Shown: in pieces, positions 5,643 to 48,342 of the stretch | Numbering within the stretch: position 1 is the stretch's first letter | How the letters are laid out: every line of letters begins with the position of its first letter | From: Yuukianura sp. NJ FZ-2021 | Taxonomy: Eukaryota | Length of the DNA: 64,000 nt | Direction of reading: 5' to 3' | Assembly: GCA_046563655.1 (NCBI GenBank) | Contig: CM102286.1 | Coordinates: forward strand, 8,308,001-8,372,000 | Translations under genes and position numbers: made by a program | Notes under the pieces: model-generated | What the model was told of the DNA's origin: nothing | The model's input: only the letters and a program-made list of their open reading frames with translations | The model's database searches: none

Positions 5643-40483
<34,841 letters not shown>

Positions 40484-41027
40484 TTCTAAGCGAAGTCGTT
40501 CTAACAAAGCCAACTCTGCTCGTCGTTCTGATAAACTTAAGTAACCAGACGAGTGTAACGACACCATTTCCAAAAGTCCGGAAAAAGTGTGATCTAGCGT
40601 GGAAAAGGAATTATGTTCTTTTCAACTTACTGAGTCTGATCCGGCAGTGCTGGATGAGAACCAAGAGGAAATTGCAAGGCGAAAGATGCCAAGCTGAAGT
40701 GCTTCTTACGATTTCTTACTGAGAGTTCATTGTCCACAGAGCCACTGCCAATTCAACTTTCTTCCTGGAGGATTCAATTCACAACGAAAATTTAAACTTA
40801 TTCTTTCCTTCCAGACTTTCTTTTCAAAATTCCAAAGTTCCAGATTCCAAATCCAACTTTTATCCCTCCAACTAATTCGACAAAAAAGAAAAAGAAAATC
40901 AACCTGATTTTTTCGAAGAGTCCGATTCTACAACCAAACACTTCTAACTCATCTTGTTTTCAAAGTATCGTGTGTCTTCTGAAATTTTGTGAAGTTTCGA
41001 TTTTCAGAAGCTAAAAGTTTTACTGTA

Positions 41028-41354
41028 AGTAGTTATCATCGCATGACTACTAGTAAAAACAAACTTGACCTGTAGGTCAAAATATGTAAACATGACCTAC
41101 TTTTCGAAAGTCAACTTTTCAGGGTGCATGAGAAAATGATGATCTCATTCTTTCTCTCAGTGGAGAAGAGTATACGAGGAAGAGTTCACTTCCACCCACT
41201 TTTCACTTGTGAGGAAACTTTTGAGGGGAGGGGAGGGTGTAATTTTTATTATAACACATAAGAGCAACAAAAAACGAAACTGAGTTCAGTTGTTCATAAA
41301 CCTGGAACCATTACACTTGTTGGGAGGAGAAAATTGTCTGGTTTAAGTTCTAGT
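41028..41354 (+). repeat. Left terminal inverted repeat of the Polinton-like element
   Basis: Reverse complement of 45753-46073 with about ten small differences (substitutions plus two short indels). Confidence 0.95.
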
Positions 41355-41355
41355 A

Positions 41356-41499
41356 AATTTTAGGTTAGGTTAGGTTAGGTTAGCTAACCTAAGCTAACCT
41401 AGGTTAAGTTAGCTAGCTAGGTAGCTAAGCTAGTTAAGCTAGCTAGGTTAAGTTTAAGTTAGCTAACCTAGGTTAGCTAACCTAACCTAACCTAAAATT
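41356..41499. repeat. (TTAGG)n ... (CCTAA)n quasi-palindromic telomere-like tract
   Basis: AATTTTAGG(TTAGG)3TTAGCTAACCTA ... TAGGTTAGCTAA(CCTAA)3AATT; the interior is built from TTAGCTAA/CTAGG-type permutations. Confidence 0.9.
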
Positions 41500-41840
41500 C
41501 CAAGGCTCCTCTCAAATTCATCGACTCGTATGGGTTGGGAGTAGAGTTTTACGACAAGGCCTTTTCCAACTTTGCATCTCGGCACCAGACTTCAATTGTG
41601 GAAAACATCCGGACTCTTCAAAGTCCAAACTCTCAAGTGTGTGGAGAATATGCAATCTATTTTTTCTACAAACTTTATCATACTTGCTGTCTCATGTCCA
41701 TCTACTGCAACTTCAACTCCAACTCCAAAAGAAATGATAGGCTAGTTAGACAATTTGTAAGAAAAAAGCTTAGGAGACTCTCCAAAAATTCTCTTCCTTC
41801 CTCATCTAACCTTAATCAATGTTGTACTCCATTCAAATAA
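41496..41840 (+). pseudogene. 5'-truncated adenain-like (Polinton PRO / adenovirus-type) cysteine protease
   Basis: NSKAPLKFIDSYGLGVEFY...NIRTLQSPNSQVCGEYAIYFFY...FNSNSKRNDRLVRQFV matches the xDSYG / LQ-x-x-x-S-x-x-CG-x-Y / ND pattern of Polinton proteases. The N-terminal catalytic-His (HW) segment is absent, replaced by the TTAGG tract. Confidence 0.85.
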
Positions 41841-41948
41841 ATTTAAACAAAAAAAAACAAATAAGATCTCACAAAATCCAAATTCTCTCGTTTGTTTTAA
41901 AGCAATTGCTAACAAATTTTATTTTACCAAGTGAAAAGAAAGGGAAAG

Positions 41949-42381
41949 TTAGTCATGTGGGACATGTTCCAGCTCCTGGTTGAAGGTTTCAATGTCGCTG
42001 CGGCAAGTCTCCAGAGTCGTCTTGAGTGTAGCCAACTGTTCCGCAGCTCCTCCAGTTGTCCTCAAGTAGAATGTAGCCAGCCGACGCAAAACGTACGGAA
42101 TAGAGCTGACCTCAAAGTTGACCGTATGCTTGTTTCGGCGAAAGTAAACCCAGTGGTAGATCTTCCCCTTGTACATGGTCTCCCTGCTGAAAACTGACAA
42201 CCGCTTGTCCTCGTCAAAAGCTGCATCGGTGGGTGCAAACATATTCACGTCCAAAACTTCGTCTGAAACAGAGAAGAAGAAATATTTTTTGTTGTAAATT
42301 TGTGAAACATTGCAACTTTCCAAATCCAAATTGTAAAGAGAGAGATATTTGTTGTTACTTACTTTGATCGTTTGATGCCAT
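41949..42381 (-). CDS. Two-exon hypothetical protein (~110 aa) inside the Polinton-like element
   Basis: Exon 42381-42363 (MASNDQ), GTAAGT donor, TTTCAG acceptor, exon 42262-41949 in phase: NEVLDVNMFAPTDAAFDEDKRLSVFSRETMYKGKIYHWVYFRRNKHTVNFEV... with a helical C-terminus. Convergent with the protease. Confidence 0.6.
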
Positions 42382-43038
42382 TGGTGCGAGCAAAAGAAGT
42401 AGTAGAGTAGTGTTGACATGGTGAAGGTTCGAGTAGAAATGAAGTGGAACATGAAAAAGAAGAAGGGTAGAGTAGCAGAAAAACGAATTGAGAGTGTGGG
42501 AAATTGCTGACGTTGCTTCAGTTGGAGTTTGGAATTTCTTCACTCTTACTAGCATCAATTTCGTTTTCGTTCTTGGAATACCCGTCATCCACTGAGAACG
42601 TGGACATGTCGTTGAGGTCGTCGGAAGTTGAACCATGCACAGAACATAGCCAATCATAAAACTCCACGTCTTCTACTCCTTCCCCAAATCTCCCAATTCC
42701 CCAAACATTCCTAACCCCCAACATCATAACAACACGAAACAGAAATATGTTTTGACAAAAGTGCAATCCCACCAAATTGCATTTTTAAGATTTTCTTTAC
42801 TTGTTAGGGGCCAACGGTACTAATGCTTCTATTATGCACAAAATTGTGTCCTCACTAAAAAATACGGCCTATTAGTCGTAACACGTTGGGTGAAGTAACC
42901 ACTCAATGTATACAAAATTAGTTGTGGAGTAAACTTTTTTCAACGACGGTAGCAGAATCGCAAATGTGAAAGTTCGATTGAATGAAAAGGCAATTAGTTA
43001 GGCAGTCGTTGTGATTCCACATTTCTGTTCGTTTTATT

Positions 43039-43555
43039 TCATACATCAAAACTTAGAAGTTTTATGTTACCTGTTGTATTTAAGTGTTTACATTCCTTGG
43101 GCGTAATTTGCGTTCCACCATACAGAAACATCGGAGTTCTCTTTGGAACATATTGATTTACTTTGACTCCAAACCCACCAATTTTGACGTCACAAAACAA
43201 ATAGCACAGCCTGGAAAAGTCGTCCGCCATCTCTACCATTACTCCATTTCTTCGCTTTATTCCAGGTATGGGGCGATATCCCGAAGCAGATAATTGTGAA
43301 ATGAGGTCTTTTGTTTCGGAATCATACTTATGCCCTCGAAGTACGTTACAACCTATTTTTGGGTCATACTGAAATAAATAAAAAAAACATGAACTGTTAA
43401 ATTGAGTTGCTGGGGTCGTTTTGAAGTAATACAAATATCACTTTTCTCAAAAATAAAATGATGTTTTGTGTTTTGATCATGTAACTTAGTAAGCAAGAAT
43501 GTGACTCCGGAGAAACAAAGTTATAAGTGTATGTAAGTAAAATTTCCCCGCTCAT
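43039..43555 (-). CDS. Two-exon hypothetical protein (~147 aa), tandem copy 1
   Basis: Exon 43555-43442 (MSGEILLTY...LFLRK), 73-nt GTGATA...TTTCAG intron, exon 43368-43039 (YDPKIGCNVLRGHKY...KLLSFDV). The donor is weak, so the model is tentative. Confidence 0.5.
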
Positions 43556-43893
43556 ATTCCTACTTGCTAAAGTTTATTACATCATAACAACACGAAACAG
43601 AAATATGTTTTGACAAAAGTGCAATCCCACCAAATTGCATTTTTAAGATTTTCTTTACTTGTTTGGGGCCAACGGCACTAATGCTTCTATTAAGCACAGA
43701 ATTGTGTCCTCACTAAAAAATACGGCCTATTAGTCGTAACACGTTGGGTGAAGTAACCACTCAACGTATACGAAATTAGTTGTGGAGTAAACTTTTTTCA
43801 ACGACGGTAGCAGAATCGCAAATGTGAAAGTTCGATTGAATGAAAAGGCAATTAGACCAGTCGTTGTGATTCCACATTTCTGTTCGTTTTATT

Positions 43894-44410
43894 TTATACA
43901 TCAAAACTTAGAAGTTTTATGTTACCTGTTGTATTTAAGTGTTTACATTCCTTGGGCGTAATTTGCGTTCCACCATACAGAAACATCGGAGTTCTCTTTG
44001 GAACATATTGATTTACTTTGACTCCAAACCCACCAATTTTGACGTCACAAAACAAATAGCACAGCCTGGAAAAGTCGTCCGCCATCTCTACCATTACTCC
44101 ATTTCTTCGCTTTATTCCAGGTATGGGGCGATATCCCGAAGCAGATAATTGTGAAATGAGGTCTTTTGTTTCAGAATCATACTTATGCCCTCGAAGTACG
44201 TTACAACCTATTTTTGGGTCATACTGAAATAAATAAAAAAAACATGAACTGTTAAATTGAGTTGCTGGGGTCGTTTTGAAGTAATACAAATATCACTTTT
44301 CTCAAAAATAAAATGATGTTTTGTGTTTTGATCATGTAACTTAGTAAGCAAGAATGTGACTCCGGAGAAACAAAGTTATAAGTGTATGTAAGTAAAATTT
44401 CCCCGCTCAT
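43894..44410 (-). CDS. Two-exon hypothetical protein (~147 aa), tandem copy 2
   Basis: Same structure shifted by 855 bp (44410-44297, 44223-43894); same protein sequence as copy 1. Confidence 0.5.
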
Positions 44411-44915
44411 ATTCCTACTTGCTAAAGTTTATTACATCATAACAACACGAAACAGAAATATGTTTTGACAAAAGTGCAATCCCACCAAATTGCATTTTTA
44501 AGATTTTCTTTACTTGTTTGGGGCCAACGGCACTAATGCTTCTATTAAGCACAGAATTGTGTCCTCACTAAAAAATACGGCCTATTAGTCGTAACACGTT
44601 GGGTGAAGTAACCACTCAATGTATACAAAATTAGTTGTGGAGTAAACTTTTTCAACGACGGTAGCAGAATCGCAAATGTGAAAGTTCGATTGAATGAAAA
44701 GGCAATTAGACCAGTCGTTGTGATTCCACATTTGTGTTCGTTTTATTTCATACATCAAAACTTAGAAGTTTTATGTTACCTGTTGTATTTAAGTGTTTAC
44801 ATTCCTTGGGCGTAATTTGCGTTCCACCATACAGAAACATCGGAGTTCTCTTTGGAACATATTGATTTACTTTGACTCCAAACCCACCAATTTTGACGTC
44901 ACAAAACAAACACTG

Positions 44916-45773
44916 CTAACCAAGTACGACGCGATTTCCCCATGAATCCTTCTCATCAATTCCCGCAAAGTTGCTGAACAGTGAGCAAAGACACCAGCGA
45001 CCAGCCACATCCACAAACACATCTTCATCAAACGTTGCGGTATACTCGCGAGTGGTACCGCCAAAAGCAGTCAATTCATCGAAATGTACTTCATACTCTG
45101 GAGCACTTCCACTCTGTTGGTTTTGAACAGAAGGATACAGTTCTGGGTGAGTATTGTACTGGTGCTCATCCAACTGCCCAGGATACTCAAAATTTATTCC
45201 ACACTGAGCACAAAATCGTCTCTTGTAATTCCTCAATTCCAACGCAACAGCATCTCGTTCTAAATTGGAAGAGAAGATTATTTTTACAAAAAAAAAATCA
45301 TCATCATGACATTCTAACCTTCCGTCGGCTGGTACTGAAGGGGTACAAATGCCGACCGTGAACTACTTGTACCAGCAATGAGACCTAAAAACAACCAACA
45401 ACAATCAAAACATGCTCTGCTTTCGAATTATTAATTTGAGATTACCTGGTAATTGAATACTTGGATGCAGTTGTTGAATGTGACTTATAAAATCTCGTTC
45501 AGAAAGCCCCCTCAAGTTACATGTTTCGCATCCGCACTGTCTTCCAGCGAATGCTCCCGAGGTATCATAATGCTCAGTTTGAATGTCTTCTAACAATTCA
45601 CCTATTGTAACAAGAATTTTAAAAACAATGCGTATTACTGTATCAATTGTTTTAAGCTTACCAGGTATTTCAATGTCCAGATGGGTTGTTTGGACGTGAG
45701 GTAAGAATTGTTGTGCACCTAAATTTTGCAATTGGCATGTGTCACAAGAGTAACTAGAACTGAAACCAGACAT
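44916..45773 (-). pseudogene. Four-exon gene with three C2H2 zinc fingers, starting inside the right TIR; frameshifted and 3'-truncated, possibly the N-terminal part of the element's protein-primed DNA polymerase gene
   Basis: Exons 45773-45662, 45601-45446, 45384-45319, 45259-44916 joined by 60, 61 and 59-nt phase-1 GT-AG introns. C-x2-C-x12-H-x4-H fingers: CDTC...HVQTTH, CETC...HIQQLH, CAQC...HQYNTH. A near-perfect 7-nt duplication (44993-45006) shifts the frame. The polymerase assignment is inference only. Confidence 0.7.
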
Positions 45774-46073
45774 TTTTCTCCTCCCAACAAGTGTAATGGT
45801 TCATGGTTTATGAATAACTGAACTCAGTTTCGTTTTTTGTTGCTCTTATGTGTTAAAAAATTACACCCTACCCTCCCCTCAAAAGTTTCCTCACAAGTGA
45901 AGAGTGGGTGGAAGTGAACTCTTCCTCGTACTCTTCTCCACTGAGAGAAAGAATGAGATCATCATTTTCTCATGCACCCTGAAAAGTTGACTTTCGAAAA
46001 GTAGGTCATGTTTACATATTTTGACCTACAGGTCAAGTTTGTTTTTACTAGTAGTCATGCGATGAAAACTACT
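45753..46073 (-). repeat. Right terminal inverted repeat of the Polinton-like element
   Basis: Reverse complement of 41028-41354; ends ...GATGAAAACTACT. Confidence 0.95.
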
Positions 46074-48342
46074 TGTATTTTTAAACATTGTGCCAAAATG
46101 TTACCACACAATTGTTACCATTGTATCTTAACATTAGTTAGTGTTTAATTTTTGGTTGAGGTTGAACACTTTTATGTTCTTGTCTTATCTGTTTCAATTT
46201 TTTAAATTTTCCATCTACTCGTTCTTATGACTATAATGAATTTTGTGGAATTTGCTTGTTGTCAGTGTCAAGTTTTAAGAAAATTGATCACAACGGGAAG
46301 TCTTCCCTTTGCATTCAATATTCCCTAGCGTTGAATTTGTGTCTGGGGATGTGCTAAGAAACCCCTAGCTTGACATGGGGTCAACTCCTTAGGGGCAACT
46401 TAACTTAACTTAGGTTGGAAGTGGAATGAACAAATGGATTGGAAGCAGAGTGGCATCTCGATTAGCCCCAAGAAATTCGGAATTTGAACCAAGTCTCAAA
46501 CGGGAGCCTTTTCATTTGTCTTGATGAAAATTAATGAGCTTCTGTCCAGCTCCTCTGGTTCTCGGAATAAGGCAAAAGTCAAAGGAAGTGAATTGGATTT
46601 TGAATCTTGTTTCTTGAGAAATTGTTTAGTTTGAACTTTGAAATCAATCTTATTTCCAACAAGTCTTGACGTAGTGTTAATAAGGACTTTCACGGACGTT
46701 CAATTAGCTATGTTTTAATTAATTATATTGTATTGATATTTATAAGTTTTGCATGGTAGTTTTTATCTTGAATCAAACAGATAGTCGAAATCGTTAATTT
46801 TACAAATGACATAACCAGTTTTTATACTGTATTTTATAATTTATTGTTCAAATTATTATTTTGTTGAAATAATTCATTAGATTTTCAGTGATTTTATTTG
46901 TAGGGTTTATACGGCCCGGAGCTCTCAAGGATCTGCTTAACCTTAAAGTTTGGTGTTGTTTTACCAAAAGAGTAAACGGGTTTGTTTTGTGCCTAGTTTA
47001 AAATATATATTCCAATTTAAAAATACATGCATACACACATCTTATGCATATTATGTTAGGTATATTATATTCTGCATATTGAAATTTCATTATACGTTAA
47101 CGAGTTTTTGTTATGCGTAAGACTACAGCCTTGTTCGAAAAATTTTCACACTTGTACAATTGAATTTAACACAGCATGACATTTTACGAGATAAAATTAA
47201 AAATGTTTGTGTATGAGTTAGTGCAAACAATGAAAGGGCAGCGTCGAATTTGAAAATTTTGTGTTGTTCGCCGATGCCTTTTTAGATATAACTATACTAG
47301 TAATGCAATTTTGAAAAAAAGTTTGTTAACTCAAAATTTCTAACCTTTGGTTATATTAGCATGAGCACACCAAAAAGTTATTGTTAATCTTAAAGTTTCT
47401 TCAATAAATTTGAAGTTTGAGTCCTGAATAGCTATGGAGTCGAAACCCCAATTTCCAAGAGAAATTTACTGTTATGTCTTGATCAGCCAGGTCAGAAGAA
47501 CCTTATAAACCTAACATTTTGTTCAAAAACTTGGCTTCACTTTCTTCTCTTTTTGCAATTTGGAAAAAGAAATTTTGCATGAAAGGTTTTGCGAAGCCGA
47601 ATCCTCTTGGTTTACTAGAAAGCTTTTGGATTTGATTTCGACGAAAGCTACGACGAGTACTGAGATGGGCCTAACGAATCCCGATGCCTTGGAGGATTTT
47701 GTAGTCTCCACTTTTCTTCCATATTCAATTCCACAGTAAAATTTTACGACGGAACGACGCTTATCCTTTTCTTCTCTTTTCCGTGTTCTTTAGGAGATCC
47801 CAAATGGAACGACGCACACTTTCCGGGCGCTACTTTGCCACAGTTTAGTTGAATTGACGCAAGGGAAACCCGGGAAACAAAAAGTTAAGTCTCCAATCTC
47901 ATCTCCTCAAACTCACTTTCTTTTCCCTATTCTTGCAGATCTGTCTGATCTGTCGCAAAGGAGGACTTCATCCATATCACCATAGGACCCTTCCTTATGA
48001 AAATAGTCAACTTTCGATATAAAACAAAAGACCAAGAAAACACATAACTTGTTTCAATCTCTTTCTTCCGCACTTCATCCTCCAAATGTAACACAAACGA
48101 AATCCACTAACAAAAACTTTTTGCAAAAAAATATGAAAACGACTGCGACGCCTTTGTACACACTTATATTTCAATATTCAATTTCAAGATGAGGGAAACG
48201 ACTCGCTCTTTATTTTCCGTTCTATGAGTATTATACTTTTGGATTTCGAAGAAGAAATAGGTTCAGCCCTGCATTAGAGTGTGGTTCCAGTGTGTGGAAA
48301 AGGAAGTCGCTCAATTTCATTTTGGACAGAAATCCATACGTT

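What the first reader, a model, noticed from the sequence alone, without database searches (positions are those of the whole stretch)
41028..46073. Miniature Polinton/Maverick-like viral element with spliced genes
Seen: a 5,046-bp unit with AGTAGT/ACTACT ends, ~325-bp TIRs, an adenain-like protease fragment, and at least three different small genes that need GT-AG splicing to read through. Established: Polintons/Mavericks are usually about 15-20 kb with AGT-type termini, long TIRs, pPolB, retroviral-type integrase, packaging ATPase, protease and capsid genes, mostly as intron-poor ORFs. Inference: a defective-interfering-like or non-autonomous derivative of an intron-rich family, with intact ends that could be mobilised or packaged in trans.
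Basis: partly seen in the sequence, partly recalled or inferred. Interest (0 to 1): 0.8.

Follow-up and report, generated by a model that had tools for sequence, protein, structure and literature searches.

The report
Broken Maverick element inside host mRNA
A dead, rearranged 5-kb remnant of a virus-like Maverick/Polinton transposon carries tandem copies of a piece of a host histone-methyltransferase-type gene and sits in the tail of a host gene, where it appears to be read through into RNA whose folded-back ends are edited by the host.

Summary
The element is real. It has AGTAGT/ACTACT ends, ~330-bp TIRs and a 4-bp TSD against an empty site; relatives have 6 bp. It derives from 14-18-kb Mavericks in the same genome.

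The unit holds an exon homologous to a host SET-domain family; no SET C-half was detectable.

Three introns are supported by comparison between copies, none by RNA. Only one insertion site exists (a second assembly copy shares its flanks and has 7.6 units), so trans-mobilisation is not shown.

New: one run, probably RNA-seq though not labelled so, reads the element unspliced and shows 14 A-to-G changes confined to the TIR. This fits ADAR editing of a fold-back in the host 3' UTR.

This scan has already reported mini-Mavericks and spliced pPolB leaders elsewhere in this genome.

The parts
40295..40483 (+). Last coding exon of the host PH-domain gene; the element lies 544 nt after its stop.
   Evidence: PH hits. 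No AATAAA/ATTAAA between stop and insertion; first ones after the site at 47196 and 47403.
41024..41027 (.). Left copy of the 4-bp target-site duplication TGTA (right copy 46074-46077)
   Evidence: Empty site at C4:~9215434 has a single TGTA.
41028..41362 (+). Left TIR, pPolB-type end: runs ~27 nt into a degenerate copy of the pPolB start
41362..41493 (.). Palindromic filler with (TTAGG)4 and (CCTAA)3 head to head, sealing an ~11.5-kb deletion
   Evidence: A core 20-mer occurs once in the genome. CCTAA/TTAGG runs at 3 of 15 contig ends sampled.
41494..41840 (+). 3' half of the adenain-like protease gene, without the His-motif half
41949..42381 (-). Spliced 110-aa Maverick accessory gene: exon 1 42381-42363, phase-1 intron 42362-42263, exon 2 42262-41949; function unassigned
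   Evidence: Same short first exon and phase-1 GT-AG intron in diverged relatives.
42518..42708 (-). 3' end (63 codons) of a ~177-aa Maverick accessory gene, cut by the array junction
   Evidence: 81-84% aa identity to L003, L006, L009.
42721..44910 (-). 2.6 tandem copies of an 855-bp unit with a SET-family-related exon (43368-43071, 44223-43926, 5'-cut copy 44910-44780); degenerate
44911..45773 (-). 5' leader of pPolB with zinc-finger exon: exon 1 45773-45446, intron 45445-45385, exon 2 45384-45319, intron 45318-45260, exon 3 cut at 44911; frameshifted near 45005
   Evidence: Six-copy alignment, phases, C2H2-like hits below cut-off.
45746..46073 (-). Right TIR, pPolB-type end; 14 A-to-G changes (+ strand, 45855-46036) in run X1

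Best explanation
A dead, singly inserted recombinant remnant of the genome's Maverick family that now acts as an inverted-repeat insert in a host 3' UTR. SHOWN: two pPolB-type ends enclose a deleted core, the tail of the accessory region and a tandem array; it is bounded by a TSD relative to an empty site. INFERRED, order unknown: (1) the far end was lost inside the 177-aa gene and replaced by captured genomic DNA of a host SET-family gene plus an inverted copy of the pPolB end (copy-back, or recombination with a second element); (2) ~11.5 kb from pPolB codon ~9 to mid-protease was deleted and both broken ends received telomere repeats before joining; (3) the unit has since changed copy number by unequal exchange (2.6 vs 7.6). 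Present behaviour, inferred from one run: the host gene transcribes through the element on the + strand, the TIRs pair into a ~330-bp stem, and ADAR hyper-edits it; the element's own minus-strand genes are not seen spliced.
For: pPolB and protease are co-oriented in 5 of 5 relatives but opposed here and in the sibling. The deleted span is 11,465-11,479 bp in 3 of 3 relatives measured. X1 contigs bridge protease-to-unit and right-flank-to-unit, so those junctions are not an assembly artefact. A profile of 5 host SET exons hits the unit exon at E=1e-6 among 2,916 window segments, next unrelated hit E=0.9; acceptor phase 0 and donor phase 1 match 3 of 3 host paralogues checked; SET clusters score 0.94 in the atlas. 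X1 lays only 5 records, with no TIR pile-up and no relatives, against 76 records and a TIR pile-up in same-sample X3. Its right-TIR contig has 14 T>C (A>G on +) at sites where 4 of 4 genomic TIR copies have T; 11 of 14 have zero depth in X3; the 553-nt flank contig has 0 changes and two interior contigs 2 in ~2,100 nt. An A_deamin gene with a weak dsrm hit (E=0.02) is in the genome.
Against: X1's library is not on record and the tool guessed 'DNA?'. The editing rests on one contig (depth 15.9) of one run; no left-TIR contig beyond 41051 was laid. The neighbour bias is not significant alone (5' G 1 of 14, p=0.14; 3' G 6 of 14, p=0.06). An AATAAA at 41836 could end transcripts before the right TIR. 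The labelled RNA run X6 laid 0 records. The SET C-half was not detected in any test, and 3 of the 5 profile members were first found with the unit as query. No close donor gene is in the assembly. Short TTAGG runs also occur at 3 other places in 419 kb scanned, one inside a relative's TIR, so a templated source for the filler is possible.
Confidence: 0.7

Rival explanations
1. One reading: a non-autonomous or defective-interfering mini-Maverick that formed outside the chromosome and is copied, packaged and integrated by helper elements.
For: Intact termini and a clean TSD. The outer ~170 bp of the TIRs are nearly identical while the inner half differs at ~9 sites, as if the ends were homogenised. 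Full-size relatives with long core ORFs exist. Two same-type ends resemble copy-back genomes (recalled).
Against: One insertion site only. The TSD is 4 bp, against 6 bp in 4 of 4 relatives where both ends could be read, one with a mismatch. Recombination between TIRs of nested copies can give the same structure in place.
Confidence: 0.25
2. The array is a working cargo gene: a divergent SET protein, possibly spliced unit to unit or fused to the pPolB zinc-finger leader, amplified like a viral gene accordion.
For: Splice signals in host-matching phases. In the sibling a 175-aa frame runs from pPolB into the SET exon. SET-like motifs can be seen downstream by eye. Copy number varies. SET genes are listed for related viruses (PMC8502044 legend).
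Against: After the exon, none of 11 copies has more than 48 open codons at the obvious acceptor and 5 of 11 have 6. No splice model beats shuffles (best 1.5 bits on the broader profile vs shuffles up to 7.4). The fusion frame is closed by a stop in the window copy and is out of frame with the leader exons in the sibling. X1 shows the unit unspliced.
Confidence: 0.07
3. The A-to-G cluster is not editing: X1 is DNA and carries another allele, a related TIR or an assembly artefact.
For: The run type is guessed as DNA; 3 of 14 changes also occur in X3 and 4 of 14 in X5, in other contigs.
Against: The contig is anchored by 60 nt of this locus's right flank and by the pPolB/unit junction, and its length (1,253) equals the genomic span. 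All 14 are one change type; 11 are absent from same-sample X3; a DNA run would show the relatives.
Confidence: 0.15

Closest known systems
Mavericks/Polintons (adintoviruses) of animals: PMC8097293 (passages), bioRxiv 10.1101/2023.08.22.554363 (passages), PMC8502044 (passages)
   Same: (AGT)2//(ACT)2 termini, TIRs of 100-1,500 bp, adenain-like protease, pPolB. Most genomic copies are defective (96% in vertebrates).
   Different: 5 kb; no integrase, ATPase or capsid genes; two pPolB-type ends; 4-bp TSD (5-8 bp stated, 6 bp in vertebrates); introns in the pPolB leader, whereas intact vertebrate elements are reported intronless.
Cargo-carrying nematode Mavericks (wasp/krma), bioRxiv 10.1101/2022.07.12.499685 (passages)
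   Same: Intron-containing, host-derived sequence in the variable region.
   Different: Here the cargo is SET-related, degenerate, tandemly repeated and in a defective element; no horizontal transfer shown.
Tc1 read-through fold-back dsRNA (review PMC3878927, passages) and ADAR hyper-editing of repeat dsRNA in animals (PMC9989829, passages)
   Same: A host promoter reads through a TIR element, the TIRs pair, and clustered A-to-I changes follow.
   Different: The substrate is a Maverick TIR in a 3' UTR. Searches (listings only) showed no paper on edited Maverick TIRs; no small RNA or silencing is shown here.
Galileo copies with extended or recombinant TIRs (PMC3573991, passages)
   Same: Non-autonomous copies with sequence next to one TIR repeated inverted at the other end.
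   Different: A cut-and-paste transposon; no telomere-repeat junction or captured gene in the passages seen.
Short interstitial telomeric sequences inserted at double-strand breaks (PMC8537989, passages)
   Same: Few telomere repeats, sometimes head to head, with deletion, random filler and 1-3 in-frame bases at the break.
   Different: Described in vertebrate chromosomes; here TTAGG inside a virus-like element; telomerase involvement is inferred only.

Membership tests
Autonomous Maverick/Polinton | (AGT)2//(ACT)2 termini and long TIRs | tested here: met
Autonomous Maverick/Polinton | 5-8 bp (usually 6 bp) TSD | tested here: not met
   4 bp against the empty site; relatives have 6 bp.
Autonomous Maverick/Polinton | Full pPolB, rve integrase, packaging ATPase | tested here: not met
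   Only ~860 bp of the pPolB leader; the others are absent here but present in relatives.
Autonomous Maverick/Polinton | Major and minor capsid genes | tested here: not met
   The relatives' 500- and 337-aa ORFs are absent from the element. Their capsid identity is recalled; no library hit.
Autonomous Maverick/Polinton | Complete adenain-like protease | tested here: not met
   3' half only; C5 hits are below cut-off.
Derivative of the resident Maverick family (descent) | High nucleotide identity and shared gene order with full-size copies | tested here: met
   86-95% identity; deletion span agrees in 3 of 3 relatives.
Non-autonomous mobilised family | Several independent insertions of the same structure | tested here: not met
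   Two assembly copies share both flanks; searches give lower bounds only.
Defective-interfering genome | Helper-dependent replication, packaging and interference | not testable with these tools
   No data on free or packaged forms.
SET-domain methyltransferase | Pre-SET region and N-terminal GxG motif | tested here: met
   Host-family profile E=1e-6; no direct Pfam hit.
SET-domain methyltransferase | C-terminal half with NH(S)C and ELxxDY motifs in an open frame | tested here: not met
   No hit above shuffles; frames close early.
ADAR-edited inverted repeat in an mRNA | Clustered A-to-G, confined to the repeat, absent from matched DNA | tested here: met
   14 sites; 11 of 14 absent in same-sample X3.
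ADAR-edited inverted repeat in an mRNA | Evidence comes from an RNA library of known strand | tested here: inconclusive
   X1 library not on record; RNA inferred from its coverage pattern.
PC4/Pur-like nucleic-acid-binding fold (110-aa gene; resemblance recalled) | Structural match of the three-strand-plus-helix unit | tested here: inconclusive
   Model has three strands and two helices, pLDDT 57; matches are generic helices, Z up to 6.4; none at E<=0.001.

The most novel reading that the evidence does not exclude
The insertion has turned a host gene into a standing source of Maverick double-stranded and antisense RNA (TIR stem, antisense pPolB leader). It would silence the resident Maverick family, like maize Mu killer (recalled), with ADAR editing tuning that supply; filled and empty haplotypes would then differ in Maverick control.
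Probability: 0.15. Interest if true: 0.8.

Novelty: new variant of a known kind. Interest (0 to 1): 0.5.

Why it matters
As a mini-Maverick it is ordinary: defective copies dominate known genomes and this scan has noted several minis here. Three features add value. First, how animal hosts sense Mavericks is little studied, and this locus gives a testable case of a Maverick TIR forming edited dsRNA in a host transcript, with filled and empty versions of the site in the same assembly and, by its contigs, in run X1. Second, it records how Mavericks break and take up cargo: intron-bearing host DNA, telomere repeats at a deletion joint and end replacement in one 5-kb unit. Third, it adds comparative support that pPolB and an accessory gene of this lineage are spliced, which intron-blind annotation would miss.

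Tried and rejected
Database searches without useful hits: protease fragment against longer proteins (0 of 41 candidates); unit exon against 1.84 billion representatives (2 hits on short repeated stretches of long proteins, judged spurious), PDB sequences (0), viral contigs (0 of 54); accessory-gene alignment against metagenomes (0 of 40); putative capsid against PDB and NCBIfam (0).

SET C-half: the by-eye alignment failed profile, splice-model and shuffle tests. One search gave no models for the copy used and was redone on all 11 copies. The fold of the SET-like exon was unusable (pLDDT 39) and was not searched. PC4-like fold for the 110-aa gene: no support.

The labelled RNA run X6 (share 0.07) laid 0 records; this is no evidence either way.

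Readings dropped: a pPolB-SET fusion as a conserved product; paralogous small genes in L009 (they are two insertions in one gene); inversion of the middle block (deletion plus end replacement is simpler); a dispersed MITE as the filler (both searches skip or need exact simple repeats, so the exclusion is weak); the sibling as a second insertion.

Literature searches were seen as listings only. The two hits were not read for ADAR. No supplements or figures were seen; the maps of PMC8502044 may show SET in animal elements.
Full report
1. OBSERVATION. The unit 41028-46073 starts AGTAGT and ends ACTACT. Its TIRs are ~330 bp, 95.7% alike. The window is G000:C4:8308001-8372000 of a 98.7-Mb genome.

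2. FAMILY. The TIR finds 37 matches in the genome, a lower bound. Elements of ~14-18 kb on C10, C5 and C4 match the window's non-array parts at 86-95%. Their ORFs hit DNA_pol_B_2, Endonuclease_7, rve and F-box above cut-off, and A32/IVa2-type ATPase and Peptidase_C5 below cut-off; no Ulp1/SENP family was hit. The capsid identity of the 500- and 337-aa ORFs is recalled, not shown. So this is a Maverick derivative by descent, but it fails the tests for an autonomous member.

3. ANATOMY. pPolB and protease point the same way in 5 of 5 relatives and opposite ways here and in the sibling L001. The left TIR runs ~27 nt into a degenerate pPolB start. Read from the left, the element is therefore a normal pPolB end with ~11.5 kb deleted to mid-protease (11,465-11,479 bp in 3 of 3 relatives measured). 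The protease 3' half, the 110-aa gene and the 3' end of a 177-aa gene follow in parental order. The far end is replaced by the array and a second, inverted pPolB end. The deletion joint is a palindrome with (TTAGG)4 and (CCTAA)3 head to head; both breaks follow AATTTT, in frame with the telomere repeat. Its core 20-mer occurs once in the genome. This resembles telomere-repeat insertion at double-strand breaks (PMC8537989 passages); a templated origin from a relative's TIR, which holds (TTAGG)3, is the rival. Contigs of run X1 bridge 41458-43201 and right flank to unit, so those junctions are real; the TIR/filler joint was not bridged.

4. INSERTION. L001 (8.9 kb, 7.6 units, a 480-bp deletion) has the same flanks, so it is the same insertion. 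A third copy of the region is empty and shows one TGTA, giving a 4-bp TSD. Four relatives with both ends readable have 6 bp, one with a mismatch; papers give 5-8 bp or 6 bp. The three region copies are ~95% alike and may be haplotypes. No independent insertion was found, so trans-mobilisation is not shown.

5. INTRONS. pPolB leader: two phase-1 GT-AG introns (61 and 59 nt) join the zinc-finger exon in frame to the relatives' 1,280-aa ORF; unspliced, the frame stops after 122 codons. Donors and acceptors are kept in 6 of 6 copies aligned, and intron 2 varies by lengths that are not multiples of three; one relative also has a 1-base insertion in exon 2. Both copies of this element are frameshifted near 45005. 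110-aa gene: of 26 genome matches, 12 loci were fetched and 8 inspected. The window copy and 6 relatives of 44-74% aa identity show a short ATG exon, a phase-1 GT donor and an AG acceptor; in 1 (L050) the intron region is deleted. The gene lies convergent with the protease wherever that ORF was listed; its function is unassigned. No RNA shows splicing. Intact vertebrate Mavericks are reported intronless and nematode core genes too. This scan noted spliced pPolB leaders elsewhere in this genome (e1-7469918, e1-7469974, e1-7470646).

6. THE ARRAY. At DNA level the unit occurs only in the two copies of this element. Its exon gave 3 weak genome hits (E=0.006-0.3); 2 lie directly before Pfam SET hits and the third is a truncated paralogue. 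A profile from 5 host exons scores the unit exon at E=1e-6 among 2,916 window segments, at 20-24% identity. Acceptor and donor phases match 3 of 3 host paralogues checked. The C-half is undetectable, and no copy of 11 has more than 48 open codons after the obvious acceptor. I read it as captured genomic DNA of a host SET-family gene, probably dead, whose copy number changes by unequal exchange (units differ by 0-13 substitutions). Intron-bearing cargo is known in Mavericks, and a figure legend lists SET among genes of related viruses (figure not seen).

7. TRANSCRIPTION AND EDITING. The site lies 544 nt after the stop of a PH-domain gene, before the first canonical poly(A) signals. I laid 4 of 6 runs on 40500-43575 only. 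X1, labelled 'DNA?' by guess and from the same sample as X3, lays 5 records, none from relatives, at even depth with no TIR pile-up; X3 lays 76 and X5 60, both with pile-ups. I infer that X1 is RNA-seq. Its contigs keep the minus-strand introns; the 1,253-nt right-end contig equals the unspliced span. One contig crosses the empty site. The right-TIR contig has 14 T>C, that is A>G on the + strand, at sites where all four genomic TIR copies agree. Its 22 substitutions equal these 14 plus 8 genomic left/right differences; 5 of the 8 are shown and 3 are inferred because the table was cut. Eleven of the 14 have zero depth in X3. The flank contig has none, and two interior contigs have 2 changes in ~2,100 nt. 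Neighbour bias leans as ADAR's does (PMC9989829 passages) but is not significant. An ADAR-like gene is present. This fits a fold-back of read-through RNA, as for Tc1 (PMC3878927 passages). Limits: one contig, one run, library unknown, no left-TIR contig, and the labelled RNA run laid nothing. Searches (listings) and of this scan's notes showed no earlier report of edited Maverick TIRs or of this unit.

8. VERDICT. It is a dead, rearranged Maverick derivative with captured SET-related DNA (about 0.85), probably read through and edited in a host 3' UTR (about 0.75); about 0.7 for the whole account. Defective Mavericks are common, and this scan has several minis in this genome (e1-7469837, e1-7470081, e1-7468338, e1-7499109). 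The telomere-repeat joint, the variable SET-related array and the edited TIR make it a new variant of a known kind. Interest 0.5. The bolder reading, that it silences its family, has probability 0.15.

Noticed in passing
window 30363-31532 and 12720-13300: A perfect 1,170-bp palindrome (two 585-bp arms, no spacer) of a TTAA-bounded element; a 92% identical single copy lies at 12720-13300. The stretches fetched from the other two region copies did not reach the matching position.
   Followed up: partly
G000 C4 ~8.34, ~8.99 and ~9.22 Mb: The host region occurs three times at ~95% pairwise identity with identical PH exons: filled (window), filled (sibling), empty. X3's unit depth (758 vs flank 262) and alleles fit the window type alone; X5's unit contig looks sibling-type. 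This suggests uncollapsed haplotypes.
   Followed up: partly
L009 2869-3664 and 3846-4635: The small accessory gene of this relative is interrupted by two copies of a ~790-bp inverted-repeat insertion in opposite orientations.
   Followed up: no
L003 4874-6430, L006, L009: Full-size relatives carry an F-box/LRR-like accessory gene (F-box E=1e-6); their pPolB has an Endonuclease VII domain (E=5e-9), recalling the HNH insert of nematode and oomycete pPolB2.
   Followed up: no
L002 773-787 and L003 8011-8025: (TTAGG)3 inside the TIR of a relative, at the edge of an internal duplication: a second possible telomere-repeat patch in this family.
   Followed up: partly
window 42709-42720: The 12-nt filler at the array/177-aa-gene junction contains one telomere-like unit; it may be chance.
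   Followed up: no
L010 (C4:10601516-10606799): Another ~5.3-kb element with related TIRs, a near 6-bp TSD and different content.
   Followed up: no
L025, L027, L034 (C3 5.83-5.87 Mb), L028, L035, L036: An expanded host SET family with shared exon structure, several copies broken, some beside retroelement ORFs.
   Followed up: partly
L013/L014 and L015: Near-identical Maverick ends on C10 and C17, with the small accessory gene cut at its 5' end; the C10 element's pPolB is only ~71% identical to the window's.
   Followed up: no
   Followed up: no
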